Positions 10,342-26,211 of a stretch of 32,155 nucleotides of DNA are shown here, piece by piece. Under the pieces are notes generated by a model. It saw only the letters and a list, made by a program, of their open reading frames with translations, did no database searches and was not told the DNA's origin. The DNA comes from an uncultured archaeon (lineage in GTDB: Archaea; Asgardarchaeota; Hermodarchaeia; Hermodarchaeales; Hermodarchaeaceae): the NCBI GenBank assembly GCA_964347205.1, contig CAYFXY010000005.1:5109-37263 (forward strand). Reading direction: 5' to 3'. A program made the position numbers and the translations under genes. The first letter of the stretch is position 1. Every line of letters starts with the position of its first letter.

Positions 10342-10662
10342 CTAGGTGTCTAAAGGTTCAGTAACGCCAGGAGCCCACCAGAACCAGGTTTTTCGTTTGA
10401 TGCTGAGTTTTCCATGAATTCTCCCTTCTTGCCTAAGCCGGTTGAGCAAGCGACTTGGCGAATCGGGGCAACCGATTTCATGGAGAAGTTGAGCGATTTC
10501 AGTAGTTGTCATTGGACGATTCGTATCATGCAGAATCATCTCAACTGCCTGTGCAGATTGTGTCTTCTTGTGTTTAAGCTCAGGTTTGGGTTCTTCTTTC
10601 AACGAAACTAGCCTCAGGTAAATACCCAGTTGGTAAATAAAAAAAGAGTGGAGTGGGGACAT
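10342..10662 (-). CDS. small winged-helix DNA-binding-like protein
   Basis: The segment MTTTEIAQLLHEIGCPDSPSRLLNRLRQEGRIHG has a helix-turn-helix plus wing pattern. The N-terminal 20 residues are doubtful. A TTG at 10602 is an alternative start. Confidence 0.4.
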   Translation of the reverse strand: MSPLHSFFIYQLGIYLRLVSLKEEPKPELKHKKTQSAQAVEMILHDTNRPMTTTEIAQLLHEIGCPDSPSRLLNRLRQEGRIHGKLSIKRKTWFWWAPGVTEPLDT

Positions 10663-11429: not shown

Positions 11430-11774
11430 ATGGTGAAGAAAATGATTAAGGCTATCTTTATTGTGATTAATGGAGCCTATGCATTTTCCCGGCAATATAC
11501 TGAACAAATTGACCCCCATTTGCTTTCTGGACTGCTTACAGCATTCCGTGTTTCGTCAAAAGAATTTGCTACAGGAGAATTTCGGCAAGCAAAATTTGAA
11601 GGCTCAGAAGTTTTTGTTGATGGACTTACAGAGCGTCCGAATGATTTTGTAGCCATCTTTGCCACACCCGAGGAGCGGGCAGCGGATCTCACGAATCTGA
11701 TGGCGCTTATGGTGAAAAGATTCACACCTGGGATAGCCTGCAAGGCCCCTTTTCAGATTTTGAACCCACCATAG
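11430..11774 (+). CDS. roadblock/longin-like small alpha/beta domain protein (probable 5' part of a split gene)
   Basis: An ATG start follows GGTGA. The pattern IKAIFIVINGAYAF...DPHLLSGLLTAFRVSSKEF...FVAIFATPEE parallels the cytoplasmic tail of the giant protein at 22729-23136. Confidence 0.55.
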   Translation: MVKKMIKAIFIVINGAYAFSRQYTEQIDPHLLSGLLTAFRVSSKEFATGEFRQAKFEGSEVFVDGLTERPNDFVAIFATPEERAADLTNLMALMVKRFTPGIACKAPFQILNPP

Positions 11775-11794
11775 ATCAAATCATCGCTGGTTGT

Positions 11795-12184
11795 GTGTGG
11801 TGCGATACTGAACAAATATTGGAACCCCCCAAGATTACTTTCACCACAGATTTGATTCCCGCAAAGGAAACCGTATACCGAGGGAATACCCTGAATGTCA
11901 AATACTATGTTCATAATAGTAGTGCTCAACCAATTTACTTAACCGCAATTGTCAATGCTATTCCCCAACTCTTCGAGATGGATGGATTAACTGAAAATGT
12001 TGTTTTACGCAGTACTGTGTTTCTGCGAAATCGATCACTTAAACCTGAAAAAGCATATGACACTGCTATTCCAATCAAAGCACGGCGAATTGGTCATACA
12101 GAAATTGCGCCAATTCTTTTCATCACTCAGGGCTCAAAAGCCTTTACGGTGCTAGGAGAAAACCGTGAGGTTGACATTATATAG
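11795..12184 (+). CDS. beta-sandwich (CARDB/DUF11-like) domain protein (probable 3' part of the same split gene)
   Basis: The frame is open from 11645. The upstream in-frame residues HTWDSLQGPFSDFEPTIDQII continue the homology to the giant protein tail (ENWEGRVDQFNGASDLVEEV). The rest shows an alternating beta-strand pattern. Confidence 0.5.
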   Translation: MWCDTEQILEPPKITFTTDLIPAKETVYRGNTLNVKYYVHNSSAQPIYLTAIVNAIPQLFEMDGLTENVVLRSTVFLRNRSLKPEKAYDTAIPIKARRIGHTEIAPILFITQGSKAFTVLGENREVDII

Positions 12185-12233: not shown

Positions 12234-12497
12234 ATGATACACACTATGTTTTTTGTAGAAATTTTCTATTCCGGGATTGGACTTTGGCTGCAAATGATAC
12301 TTGCCATTTTACTAATTTGTAGTGGAGTCTTGTTCACCGGTTTACTTGTGAAAATTCGTTTTCCGTTATGTGAGGCACTTGTAGGAGTATTCGCTTCCTT
12401 TGTATGGTTTGGAGTATATATTCTGAATTGGCTTTGGGTTGAACCTGAAAGATCCAAAAAAGCACATCGAAAGGCAGAACAGAAGATTTCGAATTAA
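12234..12497 (+). CDS. small membrane protein (about 3 TM helices)
   Basis: Hydrophobic 87-aa ORF with a basic C-terminal tail (RSKKAHRKAEQK). No known motif. Confidence 0.4.
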   Translation: MIHTMFFVEIFYSGIGLWLQMILAILLICSGVLFTGLLVKIRFPLCEALVGVFASFVWFGVYILNWLWVEPERSKKAHRKAEQKISN

Positions 12498-12810
12498 GGT
12501 ACTGATTTTTTTTCACTACTGACTTTAATAACAATTGGAGTGAGTTACTTTGTAGTGACGAGTTTGGTGAGAGCTAGAATGGATTTGTATAGGCATCAGG
12601 CGTTGCGTGTTTCAACATGTCTGACGTTGGAAACAGGTTCAGTGAATGAGGCACGGCTGCGATGTTGAAAGGGTTGCAGAAGGTGGTACCACGATTATAG
12701 AAAGACGCGGATTTTCATACTGAGGTACTTGAAAGGGGTAAACATGATAACTGGTGTCAAAGCCACAGATATACTCATAATTCATAAGATTGAATAATCT
12801 GCATCAATTT

Positions 12811-13624
12811 ATGGAGAATACTAGTCTGATTGAAATTGAGCCATTCAATGATGCGATAACCTGTATTAAAACCGCATCACCATTGGGTGATCAAGCGATT
12901 ATATGCTTAGCAGTTAAAAGACATAGTATTCGATTCGGGGTGCTGGAATGCTGTTGGGGAGCTTCGAACTTTCTTCAGAACGCATCCTGTGAACCGCGTA
13001 TTTGTGACACATAATCATGAAGATCATTATGGCGGGTGTGCGGCTTTTCTTCCCAAGGCAAATATTTTTGCAGGACCAATAACACTTGAATCACTGCAAA
13101 AGCCATATCCGTTACCTGATTTTTTTAAATTTGTTTGGGGACTTCCCGAACCAGTAACAAAGGGACAAGAATTAACGGCATCATCCATTACTGTAAATGA
13201 TTTTGTGTTTGAGGTTGTGGATTTGTCAGGACATTGTGAAGAGATGGTAGGGTTTTGGGAGCCGAAACAAAAATGGTTTTTTTCCTCAGATGCAGTGCCC
13301 CTTCCATCACAGAAGCAGATGGCAATGCCTGAAGAAAACATTCCGAAAATGATAATGCGCATGCAAGAGATTCAGGATAAGAATGCAAACGTCCTTTTCG
13401 ATGGGCACCGAGGACCCATCGTGAATCCCCACGATTACATTGAAACACGAATCCGCTATCTTTCAAACTTGAGAATTCGAATTCGAGAAATGGCTAATGA
13501 AGGAAAAGAGCTTCCTGAGATAAAACACATCTTGAATTTTCCTGAGCCCTGGTACCTGCCAAATACCGAGGGACGATTTACGATTGACCATTTGATTCGA
13601 TCACTACTAGAAGACACCATATGA
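12811..13624 (+). pseudogene. metallo-beta-lactamase-fold hydrolase, frameshifted at an A4 run
   Basis: THNHEDHYGG (HxHxDH) lies in frame 2. The upstream frame-2 residues KDIVFDSGCWNAVGELRTFF are the canonical MBL strand and loop. The N-terminus (MENTSLIEIEPF...AIICLAVK) is in frame 1. The frames join if one A of AAAA at 12916-12919 is removed. Confidence 0.65.
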
Positions 13625-22455: not shown

Positions 22456-25400
22456 TTATGCCGCGGAGGGCTCTGGAAGTCCCATGGGCGCTAGTTGTAT
22501 CGGGATGAATGCTTTCTTCATTCGTAATTGGTAAATTGCCATAAGTGCTTCTAACTTATCGGTCTTGGCTGCAGCTAGATAGGTACTCAAGATTTGACCT
22601 AAAAAGATGTATTCGCGATCCTTGGTTAATTCCTTTGAGAGTTTGAAGATATCCGATTCAAGAGAGGAGAGGTGAGCGCCGCGTGGTTTGCGAGCGGCTA
22701 CACGATGTGGATGTCGGAGTGAGATAAGAAAGACTTCTTCAACAAGGTCGGAGGCACCATTGAATTGATCAACACGACCTTCCCAGTTTTCGAAATCAGA
22801 TTTGTACCGGCGTTCAAATGCTTGTGTAAACGCTTCGAGCCGTTCACGAAGCTGTTCACTAGGGGTTCCACTAAGCACTAATGCATTTCGAACAAATTTC
22901 CCATCATGAATGAGAATTCGAAATCCCTCATATTGGAGTTCCCTAAGCGTTGTTACTTCGGCTTTGTTGCCATTAGCAAGACCAGGGCTGTCAGCTAAGT
23001 CGTGACCAAAAGTTGAAATGGCTTGCAGGAATCCAGCCACAAGTGTTGCATCTTGACTTTCTTCAGCAAATGGATCAAAGACGCAAATTCCACTTTCTTT
23101 ATGGAGCACTAAAAGCCGGTTGAGATTCGCGACGTCACTGAAGGTATCAGCAATAGCCTGATACTTCGCTAATCTTTTTTGGCGTTTCGGAATGAGAACA
23201 TAGCGACGATATGTTAGCACCGAGCCCAATGGAACTATTACGATAATTGCTGCTATAAGGGCGATGATTGGTAAGTTAGCCATGAGAAGAGACCCGAAGG
23301 ACATGACATTCACGCTAAGAGGACCACCATTGTATTCAAGTGGCATATTCAGCATTGCTGCATAATTTTCTGCGCCTTCGATGGTGAGATAGAAATTGTA
23401 CTCTCCTTCAAGATCTAATAAGCCTTCGAAAGAAATCCAGCCATCATCGCCAACATATCCGACGAGGGGAGGAGGATTGCCACTAGTAGTAGTAATAGAA
23501 AGTGTGACTTTCGTACCGACGGGAAGGAAAGTCATCCCAGGTTGATGACTACTTAGACTCTTTAACGTAGTCGAAATTTGTTGAGAACTTGCGTTTTCAA
23601 GATAGAATTGGATATTCATCCACCATTCTAATCCCTGGTTCGGGACCGCATCAGGAAGAGATAATTCGAGATTATAGCCGATGGAATTCTTGGACCGAAT
23701 CACCAATGTTATTGTTGCTATCGAATCTACAAAATCCCGAGCTTCAGCGTATAAGGTTACGTTATAGGTTCCTGCAGGCAGGTTTGACGTATCCAAGGCT
23801 GGAATCTCGTATAAGCCTAACCCGGGAGTGGCTAAGATTAAGGTCGTATTTCCTAAACCAGGGACCTCTGCGGTAATTGTTCCGTGACTAAGATCTTCAC
23901 CGTTGAGTGCATCGCGAAGAATGACGCGTAAAATCACTGGGTGTTCGCTCGTAGGATATGTCCAGTCTTCATAGAGGACAAGTTGCTGATATTCAGCAGG
24001 GATACTGATATACGAGGGACGCGGTCGGGGTGAAACATTGATAGTATCAGACCAAGTTGATTCATATCCAAATTTTGCAGCATAAATTATTATGTACGCT
24101 GGATCTCCTTCATGGAAAACAAAGGCTCCAATAGGATTCGTGTCAATCGTTATATTGTATAAGCCGGGTTTGGTGGGATCAATGATAGAAAGGTCAACCC
24201 AATCCAATCGTTTGGCGACTCCACGGTTTTCGTGGATAATGTATGGAGCAAGCTGCGCGCCAGTTATCGGCAGACCAAAATCATCTGTGTACCTGATAGT
24301 GAATTGGAGCGTAGTATCGTTGATGAACGGATCTGGATCTGTGAACCAAACATCGGTAATATTGTTGAGACCCGGAAGAGGTTGTCCTTCATAGAAAAAG
24401 ACAATATGTGTACTTCGCGTAAATACTAGAAACTGTTTGGTGACGTTCTGTCCCTCATTAAAGGGTGATGTGACCGTTAGCGTGATGTTGTGTAAGATGT
24501 TAATGGACGCATTCACAGTGAAAAGAAACGCAGTGTAGTATCCCGGGAAGCCTTCGCTCGCCCAGTTATACCATTCGTAGTCCACATTTAGATCGGTTAG
24601 AGAAAGTCCCCATTCAAGGCCACTGGTATCATTATATACTGTCAAAACTGCATCATTGATGGGAAATCCAAATTGATTGTGATAATACACTTCGATTTGG
24701 ACCCAATCACCACGAATCACTGGTTCACCGGGTGGTGGAAACTCATAGGTTACGATCAGGATAGTTTGCATGTAAACCTCGAGCGTTTGAGCATTTAGTC
24801 CTGCCTCCGTTCCATTTGCCCAAAGTATATGGAGCGTATACACACCAGCGTAAGTCGATGTAGCCCAGATTGACCAATTAATTTCAACCATCCCCCCAGG
24901 AGGCACGGGGAGCACAGAATAGTTCAGTGCGTTATATTCATCATTTGAGTCGTAAACAATAAGATAACCAAACCCCGTGGTTGCATTTTCCCCAGAGTCG
25001 TCTTCAACATATCCGCGGGTACGGATTAGATCACTGGCGTTAGCCATTGTGATCACTTGACCCGCCTGATTTAGAACCTCAGAGTATTGCATATAATCCG
25101 GTGATTCACATAATAGAGTCCATTGTCCATCGCCTGCACCATAGATTTCGACCCACCACCCACTGGTGGGAGAATACCTATAGCCCCAAGAGAGATGTAT
25201 GAGCCCGTCATGTAACACTTGATGGACAGTCCAGTCATCTTCTATAGATATGGAGATCACCATGTCAATTGCATTGGTTGGAAAATCAATAACAGTGGTC
25301 ACATTCCAATCAACCCAATCATCATAAGCCCACGCTGTAAACCGTGAAGTAGCAAAGAGTGTTTCATAGAACCAGCCCATCCACGTTACATCATAAGTTA

Positions 25401-26211
25401 AACCAGGACCACCATATGTAACATTATAGTATCGTTTAGCATTCGTCATATTAATTGCCGGTGAATGCCATCCACCATCCCAAAAACCTACTCCAGGCCG
25501 TGGCCAAAGATCAAAAACAGGCGTACCATTAACTGTCATGCCAATTTCACTGGGGTAAATATAGCGATCAAATTGAGTACCGAGAAAGAAATCGATCGAA
25601 GGACCTGAAATAAAATCTAAGTTAGGCCAAGTTAACGAATACCATGCATCACCTTCGTCTTCCCCATCACCATCGGGAGGAACCCCCACATCTTCCATAC
25701 ATACCCACGCCATGGCTGCTCCAGTCATCATCGTTATTGCAAAATAGAATGTGCCAGCGTAAGTCATCGAGGAATCTAATAATATCGGCATAATAGTTGG
25801 GAATGAAGTCCATCGTTCCTCACCTCTTGGAATGTCTATATATTCTTGCATCCATGGGGCGACTTGATTCCCAAGATCAGGTTCTGTCCCTAAACCAGAC
25901 GTTCCGCTTGGAGCAGCAGAATAGATAGTAAAATTGACGTCCCCTTGTGTTTGCGGATTTGGAGGGTCTGGTGAATAGAGATAAAGAGCAAACTCATTGA
26001 TCCGAACAGGAAAACGCCCTGTTAAATTAAAGGCCATGAAAACGATTTCACCAGGATAGGCCTTTTCATCCATCTGCCAGAAATAAATCCAACCTGGCGG
26101 CGCCATCGGATCATAATCTTCCACCATCAGAAAGTCTTTCTTAGTGAGGATGGTTCCAATGCGGGTGAAATTACTAACATCATGATACATCATTCCCTTT
26201 TCAATTGTCAC
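22456..26211 (-). CDS. giant single-pass surface glycoprotein with cytoplasmic roadblock/longin-like and winged-helix-like tail
   Basis: The 1251-aa ORF has about 970 aa rich in aromatic and beta-strand residues, carrying 23 N-x-S/T sequons by my count. One TM helix, LLMANLPIIALIAAIIVIVPLGSVLTY, lies at 23209-23289 and is followed by RRYVLIPKRQKRLAK (positive-inside). The remaining 250 aa form the tail. The GTG start lacks a signal peptide (see the finding for 26208-26430). Confidence 0.8.
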   Translation of the reverse strand: MTIEKGMMYHDVSNFTRIGTILTKKDFLMVEDYDPMAPPGWIYFWQMDEKAYPGEIVFMAFNLTGRFPVRINEFALYLYSPDPPNPQTQGDVNFTIYSAAPSGTSGLGTEPDLGNQVAPWMQEYIDIPRGEERWTSFPTIMPILLDSSMTYAGTFYFAITMMTGAAMAWVCMEDVGVPPDGDGEDEGDAWYSLTWPNLDFISGPSIDFFLGTQFDRYIYPSEIGMTVNGTPVFDLWPRPGVGFWDGGWHSPAINMTNAKRYYNVTYGGPGLTYDVTWMGWFYETLFATSRFTAWAYDDWVDWNVTTVIDFPTNAIDMVISISIEDDWTVHQVLHDGLIHLSWGYRYSPTSGWWVEIYGAGDGQWTLLCESPDYMQYSEVLNQAGQVITMANASDLIRTRGYVEDDSGENATTGFGYLIVYDSNDEYNALNYSVLPVPPGGMVEINWSIWATSTYAGVYTLHILWANGTEAGLNAQTLEVYMQTILIVTYEFPPPGEPVIRGDWVQIEVYYHNQFGFPINDAVLTVYNDTSGLEWGLSLTDLNVDYEWYNWASEGFPGYYTAFLFTVNASINILHNITLTVTSPFNEGQNVTKQFLVFTRSTHIVFFYEGQPLPGLNNITDVWFTDPDPFINDTTLQFTIRYTDDFGLPITGAQLAPYIIHENRGVAKRLDWVDLSIIDPTKPGLYNITIDTNPIGAFVFHEGDPAYIIIYAAKFGYESTWSDTINVSPRPRPSYISIPAEYQQLVLYEDWTYPTSEHPVILRVILRDALNGEDLSHGTITAEVPGLGNTTLILATPGLGLYEIPALDTSNLPAGTYNVTLYAEARDFVDSIATITLVIRSKNSIGYNLELSLPDAVPNQGLEWWMNIQFYLENASSQQISTTLKSLSSHQPGMTFLPVGTKVTLSITTTSGNPPPLVGYVGDDGWISFEGLLDLEGEYNFYLTIEGAENYAAMLNMPLEYNGGPLSVNVMSFGSLLMANLPIIALIAAIIVIVPLGSVLTYRRYVLIPKRQKRLAKYQAIADTFSDVANLNRLLVLHKESGICVFDPFAEESQDATLVAGFLQAISTFGHDLADSPGLANGNKAEVTTLRELQYEGFRILIHDGKFVRNALVLSGTPSEQLRERLEAFTQAFERRYKSDFENWEGRVDQFNGASDLVEEVFLISLRHPHRVAARKPRGAHLSSLESDIFKLSKELTKDREYIFLGQILSTYLAAAKTDKLEALMAIYQLRMKKAFIPIQLAPMGLPEPSAA

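What the first reader, a model, noticed from the sequence alone, without database searches (positions are those of the whole stretch)
11430..12184. Soluble paralogue of the receptor tail module fused to a beta-sandwich domain, split at an A4 run
ORF 11430-11774 reproduces the pattern of the giant protein tail: IKAIFIVINGAYAF / LLVLHKESGICVF, LLSGLLTAFRVSS / LVAGFLQAISTFG, and FVAIFATPEE / ALVLSGTPSE.

The homology does not continue in the annotated frame. It continues in the frame of the next ORF, which is open from 11645. There, HTWDSLQGPFSDFEPTIDQII matches ENWEGRVDQFNGASDLVEEV.

Re-reading one A at AAAA 11715-11718, or adding one A, gives a single protein of about 251 aa. That protein would be the roadblock/longin-like module plus a CARDB-like beta-sandwich. 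Here the module occurs in a second context, which supports it being an independent functional unit. A small membrane protein gene follows at 12234.
Basis: partly seen in the sequence, partly recalled or inferred. Interest (0 to 1): 0.6.

Follow-up and report, generated by a model that had tools for sequence, protein, structure and literature searches.

The report
Broken Asgard longin plus Ig-like gene
The two small ORFs are one conserved Thor-type Asgard gene, a longin domain joined to an Ig-like beta-sandwich, and this genome's copy is broken by a 25-base deletion, not by a one-base slip at the A run; the architecture is a lineage-specific variant of a domain family already known to be abundant in these archaea.

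Summary
ORFs 11430-11774 and 11795-12184 are two halves of one gene. All 13 congeners read in detail and 20 of 24 database homologues have a single 255-aa ORF; three of the other four are shorter pieces.

A DNA alignment shows one lesion in the window: 25 nt are missing at 11706-11710, between short TAT-type repeats. This removes residues 90-98 of helix alpha2, including the family-wide conserved F94, and shifts the frame. The A4 run at 11715-11718 is ancestral sequence and occurs in frame in an intact orthologue.

- Profile-profile comparison of the N-module family with the giant protein's cytoplasmic tail gives 99.4% probability, E 1.9e-21, over 124 columns.

With a deep alignment, AlphaFold (pLDDT 88) gives a canonical longin fold (Z 12-14 to Fuzzy, TRAPP, VAMP7, Sec22, MON1) and not a roadblock. 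It is followed by a generic Ig-like sandwich.

The module family is large: 5,775 cluster representatives, and about 18 ORFs in this genome.

The rest of the gene is perfectly conservative, so the deletion is either recent or an assembly fault. A multi-lesion pseudogene next door favours real decay.

This scan has already noted intact orthologues in other genomes. Function as a GTPase or receptor-tail docking platform is inferred.

The parts
11442..11708 (+). 5' part of the gene: residues 1-89 of the 255-aa protein. It covers longin strands b1-b5, helix a1 and the first third of helix a2. The ORF lister starts it four codons earlier, at 11430.
   Evidence: 86-96% identical to residues 1-89 of intact 255-aa homologues of the genus (75% to the most divergent, P0028). 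Alignments. Secondary structure from the model.
11706..11710 (+). Deletion junction. 25 nt found in every congener are missing here. They encode residues 90-98, approximately IKTAFISNY, inside longin helix a2. The gap placement is ambiguous because of TAT-type microhomology.
   Evidence: This is the only gap in a 14-sequence DNA alignment. F94 is nearly invariant across 123 family members.
11709..11774 (+). Out-of-frame tail of ORF A (MVKRFTPGIACKAPFQILNPP, then stop). It is not homologous to anything in the orthologues.
   Evidence: ORF A matches orthologues only up to about residue 98 of P0003.
11708..12184 (+). 3' part of the gene, in the -1 frame: residues 98-255. It covers the end of a2, the W-x-G...F motif, helix a3, the CxWC linker and the Ig-like beta-sandwich (residues 140-255), plus the stop. 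NCBI annotates only 11795-12184 as a 129-aa protein.
   Evidence: 57-81% identical to residues 99-255 of intact homologues of the genus. Cmod HMM E 6.5e-73. Sandwich pLDDT 90-96. Exact look-up.
11715..11718 (+). The A4 run proposed as the shift site. It is normal coding sequence (GAA AAG, Glu100-Lys101 in frame B) and is not the lesion.
   Evidence: The same GAGAAAAGATTCAC occurs in frame in the intact orthologue L002. Other congeners have GAACG or GATCG here.
12234..12497 (+). Gene for an 87-aa protein that looks like a two-helix membrane protein with a basic C-terminal tail. It is a conserved downstream neighbour.
   Evidence: tblastn hits directly downstream in 10 of 13 congeners at 37-59% identity. 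No Pfam family. It is not present next to the more distant homologue P0047.
22729..23127 (-). Paralogous longin module in the cytoplasmic tail of the 1251-aa surface protein (about residues 1029-1161 of P0002), lying after its membrane helix.
   Evidence: hhalign 99.4%, E 1.9e-21. Family HMM hit at E 1.4e-8 with a hydrophobic stretch (crude TM check) upstream.

Best explanation
The region holds one gene of a Thorarchaeia-type Asgard archaeon. In every relative examined it encodes a soluble 255-aa protein. Residues 1-125 form a longin domain, followed by a short linker and a 115-residue Ig-like beta-sandwich.

The longin domain belongs to a very large module family that looks mostly Asgard. The same module forms the cytoplasmic tail of the giant surface protein at 22456-26211.

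In this genome the gene is inactivated. A 25-nt deletion at 11706-10 lies between short TAT-type direct repeats 25 nt apart, the pattern that replication slippage leaves. It removes residues 90-98 in the middle of longin helix a2 and shifts the frame. What remains is a truncated longin ORF and an orphan sandwich ORF.

Shown: the gene structure, the lesion, the homology and the folds.

Inferred from what longin domains do in Mon1-Ccz1, TRAPP, AP and SNARE systems: in the intact protein the longin domain is a dimerising platform. It would pair with another longin, possibly a receptor tail, and/or a small GTPase. The sandwich would be a second protein-binding surface. In this organism that function is probably lost, and lost recently.
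For: One gene:
- In all 14 congeners the matches to ORF A and ORF B lie in one open frame.
- The 13 congeners read in detail encode exactly 255 aa.
- 20 of 24 database homologues are 255 aa (the others 261, 229, 229 and 197 aa).
- A more distant 258-aa homologue has the same two domains.

Lesion:
- There is a single 25-nt gap in the window's row and no gap in any other row.
- The junction is ambiguous over 11706-11710, with (T/C)AT and TAT repeats 25 nt apart in the congeners.

Constraint:
- dN/dS is 0.02-0.07 against the congeners, as it is among the congeners themselves.
- The window has no private substitution at any column that is invariant in the 28 orthologues.

Homology to the tail:
- hhalign gives 99.4%, E 1.9e-21, over 124 columns.
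- The chain N-orthologues to soluble paralogues gives 98.9%, and soluble paralogues to tails gives 99.2%.
- Controls: the reversed tail profile gives 1.1% and the sandwich profile gives 0.1%.
- Pure orthologue profile against pure tail profile gives E 7.8e-4 over 106 colinear columns.

Fold:
- The AF2 model has pLDDT 88 and the order b1 b2 a1 b3 b4 b5 a2 a3.
- VIA-align gives Z 13.8 to Fuzzy, 13.6 to TRAPP, 13.5 to VAMP7, 12.9 to Sec22 and 12.4 to MON1A, each over 110-129 residues.
- Family members hit Pfam Fuz_longin_1 (33 of 123, best E 4.5e-9), Longin (15), Clat_adaptor_s (8) and Sybindin (6).
- The sandwich gives Z 10.4-11.4 to transglutaminase, macroglobulin, pilin and TRAP-beta domains.

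Real decay nearby:
- The MBL-fold gene at 12790-13624 has a lost start codon, an 8-nt deletion and a TAC-to-TAG change relative to 5 congeners.
- A hydrogenase/Hdr operon of about 7 kb that lies here in congeners is missing.

Pairing with the tail (weak support only):
- Complex prediction scored 0.39, against 0.00 for the best of 3 controls. The runs agree in at least 66% of contacts and the partner's pLDDT is at least 74.
- The mark was reached by 58 of 80 solved complexes and 2 of 110 mismatched pairs. At 0.60 or under it was reached by only 7 of those 80 solved complexes, and by both mismatches that passed.
- Longin dimers have been solved, so the pass may come from memory.
Against: - No reads were available, so the deletion could be an assembly or consensus fault. 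The MAG is 78% complete in 163 contigs.
- The gene carries only this one lesion and is otherwise perfectly conservative. That fits an artefact as well as it fits a very recent mutation.
- No same-species genome is available for comparison; the closest homologues are 81-96% identical.
- The functional part is inference. No small-GTPase gene lies next to this gene in the window or in the congener loci.
- The protein itself matches no Pfam family.
- The complex prediction gives only weak support.
Confidence: 0.8

Rival explanations
1. Assembly or consensus artefact. The organism carries the intact 255-aa gene, and the 25-nt gap arose when the MAG was built.
For: - Apart from the gap the gene is flawless, with no private change at invariant positions and dN/dS like its relatives.
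- The gene is kept in all 14 congeners searched.
- The MAG is fragmented: 163 contigs, 78% complete.
Against: - A 25-nt loss between 3-nt repeats is not a typical homopolymer or short-read consensus error.
- The neighbouring MBL gene carries three independent lesions of different kinds. Real gene decay in this stretch is therefore plausible.
- NCBI's record carries the same ORF B, but this is the same assembly, so it is not independent.
Confidence: 0.2
2. A -1 ribosomal frameshift or transcriptional slippage at the A4 run 11715-11718 joins the two frames into a working protein of about 251 aa.
For: The two frames overlap from 11645 to 11774, so a -1 shift anywhere in that stretch would join them.
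Against: - No relative has the two-frame arrangement. All have one ORF.
- GTG AAA AGA is not an X XXY YYZ slippery heptamer, and four A's are far fewer than known transcriptional slippage runs (established knowledge).
- The A run is ancestral in-frame sequence.
- Any joined product would lack residues 90-98 of helix a2, including the nearly invariant F94.
Confidence: 0.03
3. A functional split. The truncated longin ORF and the stand-alone sandwich ORF (from GTG 11795) both still work as separate proteins.
For: - ORF B retains the whole sandwich, residues 127-255.
- Both halves are still conservative.
Against: - ORF A loses two thirds of helix a2 and all of a3, which pack against the sheet in every longin.
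- No split form exists among the 24 database homologues or the 14 congeners.
- The conservation is explained equally well by the lesion being recent.
Confidence: 0.05

Closest known systems
Asgard longin-domain proteins (the Roadblock/longin expansion of Liu et al., bioRxiv 10.1101/2020.10.19.343400; Tran et al. 2024, PMC10933270)
   Same: - It is an Asgard, single-longin, lineage-specific multidomain protein.
- The papers describe many longin families, patchy distribution and architectures not seen in eukaryotes.
- Atlas neighbours include Asgard longin-Arf/Ras and longin-V4R fusions.
   Different: - Neither paper was found to mention a longin joined to an Ig-like sandwich, nor longin tails on giant surface proteins, in the passages read.
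- Tran et al. state that longin homologues were reported in Loki and Odin. Here about 18 longin ORFs lie in one Thor-type genome.
First longin domain of Fuzzy / MON1 / HPS1 (Pfam PF19036, tri-longin RabGEF subunits)
   Same: - It is the Pfam family hit by most members of the module family (33 of 123, best E 4.5e-9).
- It includes the top structural match, Fuzzy at Z 13.8, with MON1A at 12.4 and BLOC-3 at 12.3.
   Different: - Those proteins have three longin domains and act as heterodimeric GEFs. This protein has one longin plus a sandwich.
- The 255-aa protein itself does not reach any Pfam threshold.
- No Rab-like partner was identified.
Medium subunits of adaptor complexes and delta-COP (longin plus mu-homology domain)
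   Same: The order of folds is the same: an N-terminal longin, then an all-beta domain. Foldseek's best full-length rows are delta-COP and AP-2/AP-1/AP-3 mu chains (E 7e-7 to 1e-4).
   Different: - Those alignments have rmsd 17-24 A.
- Their Z (11.1 for 2xa7_M) is no better than for mu longin domains alone (12.0 for 9c58_M).
- The mu-homology domain is about 270 aa with two subdomains (established knowledge). This domain is one 115-aa sandwich whose best matches are transglutaminase, macroglobulin and TRAP-beta domains.
Ig-like / E-set beta-sandwiches (TRAP-beta, macroglobulin MG domains, CARDB)
   Same: The fold matches at Foldseek E 1.6e-6 to TRAP-beta and 6e-5 to CARDB 3idu, and at Z 10.4-11.4 with rmsd 2.2-2.9 A over 97-117 residues.
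   Different: - There is no sequence-family membership: no CARDB, TRAP_beta or DUF11 hit at E up to 10.
- Those domains are mostly extracytoplasmic. This protein has no signal peptide or membrane helix.

Membership tests
Longin domain (SNARE-like fold) | Order b1-b2-a1-b3-b4-b5-a2-a3, with no helix before b1 | tested here: met
   The AF2 model (pLDDT 88) has E2-9, E12-18, H25-42, E49-52, E55-61, E69-74, H80-102, H113-125.
Longin domain (SNARE-like fold) | Structural superposition on solved longin domains over most of the domain | tested here: met
   Z 11.5-13.8, rmsd 2.4-3.4 A, 110-129 residues aligned to Fuzzy, Trs23/Bet5, VAMP7, Sec22, delta-COP, MON1, AP mu and SR-alpha.
Longin domain (SNARE-like fold) | Match to longin-type sequence profiles | tested here: inconclusive
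   The 255-aa protein has no Pfam hit. Its homologues hit Fuz_longin_1 (33 of 123), Longin (15), Clat_adaptor_s (8) and Sybindin (6).
Roadblock/LC7 | An N-terminal helix before the first hairpin and a single C-terminal helix | tested here: not met
   The model starts with a strand at residue 2 and ends with two helices. MglB and roadblock matches cover only residues 1-104 at Z 10.6-11.2. Robl_LC7 was hit by 1 of 123 members.
GAP-type longins (FLCN, NPRL2, SMCR8/C9orf72) | A Gly-Pro motif just before strand b2 (PMC12290439) | tested here: not met
   Gly11 is invariant in 123 sequences. In the 18-row alignment shown in full (A3) it is followed by A, I, V, E, Q or L, never P, and the tail has G-I. 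No member hit Pfam NPR2 at E 0.01.
GAP-type longins (FLCN, NPRL2, SMCR8/C9orf72) | A catalytic arginine finger beside the GP motif | not tested
   A basic residue (R/K17) recurs in b2 in 17 of the 18 aligned sequences. Its spatial equivalence to the finger was not examined.
AP mu / delta-COP medium subunits | A C-terminal mu-homology domain (about 270 aa, two beta subdomains) | tested here: not met
   The C-domain is a single sandwich, residues 140-255. Two-domain alignments to mu chains have rmsd 16.6-17.7 A and no gain in Z over the longin alone.
Tri-longin RabGEF subunits (Mon1, Ccz1, Fuzzy, HPS1) | Three consecutive longin domains | tested here: not met
   There is one longin domain only, followed by a beta-sandwich.
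CARDB (PF07705) | Match to the family profile | tested here: not met
   No hit at E up to 10 for the whole protein or for residues 120-255. The likeness to 3idu is at fold level only.
Programmed -1 frameshift site | The two-frame arrangement and slippery site conserved in relatives | tested here: not met
   All 13 aligned congeners and the full-length database homologues have one uninterrupted ORF. The window differs by a 25-nt deletion.

The most novel reading that the evidence does not exclude
In its intact form, this genus-specific longin-plus-sandwich protein is a minimal adaptor. Its longin domain docks on the longin tails of the giant surface glycoproteins, or on a small GTPase. Its Ig-like domain recruits a second client. 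That would be a one-chain functional analogue of eukaryotic medium adaptor subunits, linking the Asgard cell surface to intracellular machinery.
Probability: 0.1. Interest if true: 0.75.

Novelty: new variant of a known kind. Interest (0 to 1): 0.3.

Why it matters
For this window the result is mainly corrective.
- The apparent homopolymer frameshift is a 25-nt deletion in a conserved gene.
- The two annotated ORFs should be merged and flagged as a disrupted gene.
- The stretch is not evidence of recoding.

More broadly, one longin module is reused in a Thor-type Asgard genome in several settings. It forms the inner tail of giant surface proteins, and it is the head of soluble proteins with varied C-terminal domains. 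That makes one question directly testable: do soluble longins pair with receptor tails, or with the many Asgard small GTPases? The architecture itself is one more lineage-specific shuffle of a domain already known to be abundant, so the surprise is moderate.

Tried and rejected
- Pairwise BLASTP of ORF A or frame B against the giant tail was not significant. Profiles were needed.
- Pfam on ORF A, frame B, the intact orthologue and the tail gave nothing above threshold.
- The first AlphaFold run, with 28 near-identical orthologues, left the N-domain at pLDDT about 35. It resolved only with the 123-sequence family alignment.
- The search for a second, intact copy in the same genome found none. 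The sandwich HMM hits only this locus.
- The exact look-up of ORF A in the protein collection found nothing. ORF B is present only from this assembly, so there is no independent sighting of the deletion.
- The CxWC linker plus His227, invariant within the genus, was considered as a metal site. It is absent from the more distant homologue P0047, so it is not a family feature.
- The mu-adaptin reading was considered and set aside.
- The NPRL2-like and GAP-longin reading was considered. The GP motif is absent and there is no NPR2 hit.
- Literature searches for Asgard with 'mu homology domain' found no paper. Searches for adaptor medium subunits found nothing relevant.
- Synonymous sites are saturated against all congeners. 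dN/dS therefore cannot date the lesion.

Full report
**The observation.** ORF A (11430-11774, 114 aa) and ORF B (11795-12184, 129 aa) lie in different frames, and ORF B's frame is open back to 11645. Neither ORF, nor the giant protein's tail, matches a Pfam family. Plain BLASTP between them and the tail of the 1251-aa protein (22456-26211, minus strand) is not significant.

**One gene in all relatives.** I ran a six-frame search of 40 related genomes.
- The matches to ORF A and to ORF B lie a few bases apart, in one open frame, in all 14 genomes of the same genus.
- The sandwich half was not found outside the genus.
- In the 13 congeners I cut out, the gene is exactly 255 codons from MIKAIF.
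- The large protein database returned 24 homologues. Twenty are 255 aa; the others are 261, 229, 229 and 197 aa. They are named only 'hypothetical protein', from Promethearchaeota, Thorarchaeota or Hodarchaeota MAGs. The organism is therefore an Asgard archaeon of Thor type.
- A more distant 258-aa protein from a JGI sediment metagenome (record GBSed, so probably Guaymas Basin) is 41% identical and has the same two domains.

**The lesion.** In the DNA alignment the window's row has a single 25-nt gap, and no other row has any gap.
- Frame A follows the orthologues up to Leu89 (CTT, 11706-11708).
- Frame B follows them from Tyr98 (TAT, 11708-11710).
- The gap can be placed anywhere from 11706 to 11710 with about equal fit. 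The congeners carry (T/C)AT and TAT at the two ends, 25 nt apart. This is the pattern expected of a slippage deletion between short direct repeats, which is an inference.
- The A4 run at 11715-11718 encodes Glu100-Lys101. It is present identically and in frame in the intact orthologue L002. It is not the break.
- Residues 90-98 are lost. They sit in the middle of helix a2 and include F94, one of only four positions that are invariant or conserved in at least 90% of 123 family members. A one-base correction or a ribosomal slip would therefore not restore a normal protein.

**Real or artefact.**
- Apart from the gap, the window's copy is as constrained as its relatives. dN/dS is 0.02-0.07, although synonymous sites are saturated.
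- It has no private substitution at any column that is invariant in the 28 orthologues.
- The lesion is therefore either very recent or not real. No reads and no same-species genome were at hand.
- Several nearby observations favour real decay:
  - The MBL-fold gene 0.6 kb downstream has a lost start (ATG to CTG at 12826-12828), an 8-nt deletion after 12899, and TAC to TAG at 12908-12910, relative to five congeners.
  - A stretch of about 7 kb lies between the membrane-protein gene and the MBL gene in congeners. It encodes a NiFe hydrogenase and HdrA-like proteins, and it is missing here.
  - Only a 39%-identical paralogue of the hydrogenase large subunit is found elsewhere in this 78%-complete MAG.
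- I put the odds at about 3 to 1 for a real deletion.

**Homology with the receptor tail.**
- A profile of the orthologues alone against a profile of giant-protein tails alone gives E 7.8e-4 over 106 colinear columns, at only 25% probability, because the orthologue profile has almost no diversity.
- Adding soluble paralogues, but no tails, gives 99.1% locally and 99.4% with the tool (E 1.9e-21, 124 columns).
- The chain holds link by link: orthologues to paralogues 98.9%, paralogues to tails 99.2%.
- A reversed tail profile gives 1.1% and the sandwich profile gives 0.1%.
- A family HMM built without tails hits the window's giant protein at E 1.4e-8.

**The family.**
- An exhaustive profile search found 5,775 cluster representatives at E 1e-3 or better and 1,037 at 1e-10 or better.
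- In most of the 150 hits listed, the module sits at the N-terminus of a 120-700-aa protein. In some it is internal in a protein of 1,500-2,200 aa.
- This genome has about 18 ORFs with the module. Two show a hydrophobic (membrane-like) stretch upstream of the module in large proteins.

**Folds.**
- With the 123-sequence alignment, AlphaFold gives pLDDT 88.
- Residues 1-125 have the longin order of elements.
- An all-against-representatives structural search puts longin domains on top: Fuzzy 13.8, TRAPP 13.6, VAMP7 13.5, Sec22 12.9, delta-COP 12.4, MON1A 12.4.
- Roadblock proteins score lower and cover only residues 1-104.
- Members of the family hit the Pfam longin families Fuz_longin_1, Longin, Clat_adaptor_s and Sybindin. 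Robl_LC7 is hit once.
- Residues 140-255 form a confident Ig-like sandwich. Its matches are generic: TRAP-beta, macroglobulin, transglutaminase, pilin, cohesin and CARDB domains.

**Comparison with known systems.**
- Foldseek's best full-length rows are delta-COP and AP mu chains. Their rmsd is 17-24 A, and their Z is no better than for the longin alone. I read this as the same order of folds, not membership.
- The GAP-longin signature (Gly-Pro before b2, PMC12290439) is not present. Gly11 is invariant, but no proline follows it in the alignment shown in full.
- Liu et al. (bioRxiv 10.1101/2020.10.19.343400) already describe the large, patchy longin/roadblock expansion in Asgard archaea, with unusual domain fusions.
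- I found no mention of this particular fusion.
- Earlier notes of this scan record the intact 768-nt orthologue in five other genomes. One follow-up reached the same verdict, a lineage-specific shuffle.

**Mechanism (inferred).**
- Longin domains act as dimeric platforms for small GTPases and for other longins (PMC10933270).
- The intact protein most likely pairs through its longin domain and uses the sandwich as a second binding surface.
- A complex prediction of the orthologue's longin with the window's receptor-tail longin gave weak support. The score was 0.39, against 0.00 for the best of 3 controls. The runs agreed in at least 66% of contacts and the partner's pLDDT was at least 74.
  - The mark was reached by 58 of 80 solved complexes and 2 of 110 mismatched pairs.
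  - At 0.60 or under it was reached by only 7 of those 80 solved complexes, and by both mismatches that passed.
  - Longin dimers have been solved, so the pass may be from memory.
- No GTPase gene neighbours this gene. A paralogous 277-aa longin gene in a sister genus is directly followed by a small-GTPase gene.
- Gene order is conserved within the genus: winged-helix gene, 174-aa helical protein, this gene, then the 87-aa membrane protein. At this short evolutionary distance that is weak evidence of a functional link.

**Verdict.** The proposed break point and mechanism are wrong. The feature is a probably real, recent pseudogene of a genus-specific longin plus Ig-like protein.

Noticed in passing
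window 12790-13624: The MBL-fold gene is a multi-lesion pseudogene relative to 5 congeners. Its start ATG is CTG at 12826-12828, 8 nt are missing after 12899, and TAC is TAG at 12908-12910.
   Followed up: partly
window 12500-12790, versus L072:3300-10700: In at least 5 congeners about 7.6 kb separate the longin-sandwich gene from the MBL gene. In the congener G001 that I annotated (L072), most of this stretch is a minus-strand operon for a NiFe hydrogenase large and small subunit, MvhD/FlpD, and two HdrA-like Fe-S flavoproteins. That stretch is absent at this locus in the window. Only a 39%-identical paralogue of the large subunit is found elsewhere in this 78%-complete MAG.
   Followed up: partly
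L041:350-1599 (sister genus) and L063:435-1259 (own genome, contig C18): A paralogous 274-277-aa longin protein is followed directly, and overlapped, by a Ras/Rab-like small-GTPase gene in the sister-genus contig. This is a possible longin-GTPase gene pair. The own-genome neighbour was not inspected.
   Followed up: no
own genome, 18-20 ORFs (for example C39:3-1862, C21:27772-28857, C24:20317-24636): The same longin module heads proteins with quite different C-terminal parts. One is a protein of more than 617 aa with a long charged, coiled-coil-like tail. Others are 215-424-aa soluble forms. The module also forms the tail of at least three large membrane proteins in this one genome.
   Followed up: partly
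orthologue residues 124-130 and 222-228 (window about 11786-11806 and 12080-12100): A-G-C-x-W-C-D in the linker and A-R-R-I-G-H-T in the sandwich are invariant in the 28 aligned orthologues, all but one of which (P0028) belong to the genus. Neither is conserved in the 41%-identical homologue P0047. This may be a lineage-specific metal or redox site.
   Followed up: partly
window 10342-10662 (-): A 106-aa protein matches the TBPIP/Hop2 winged-helix domain above Pfam's cut-off (E 1.9e-5, 24.9 bits against 22.8). It is syntenic with the 174-aa helical protein and the longin gene in most congeners.
   Followed up: no
window 11795-12184: The public record annotates only the sandwich half, as a separate 129-aa protein starting at an internal GTG. 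The annotation hides the disrupted gene.
   Followed up: yes
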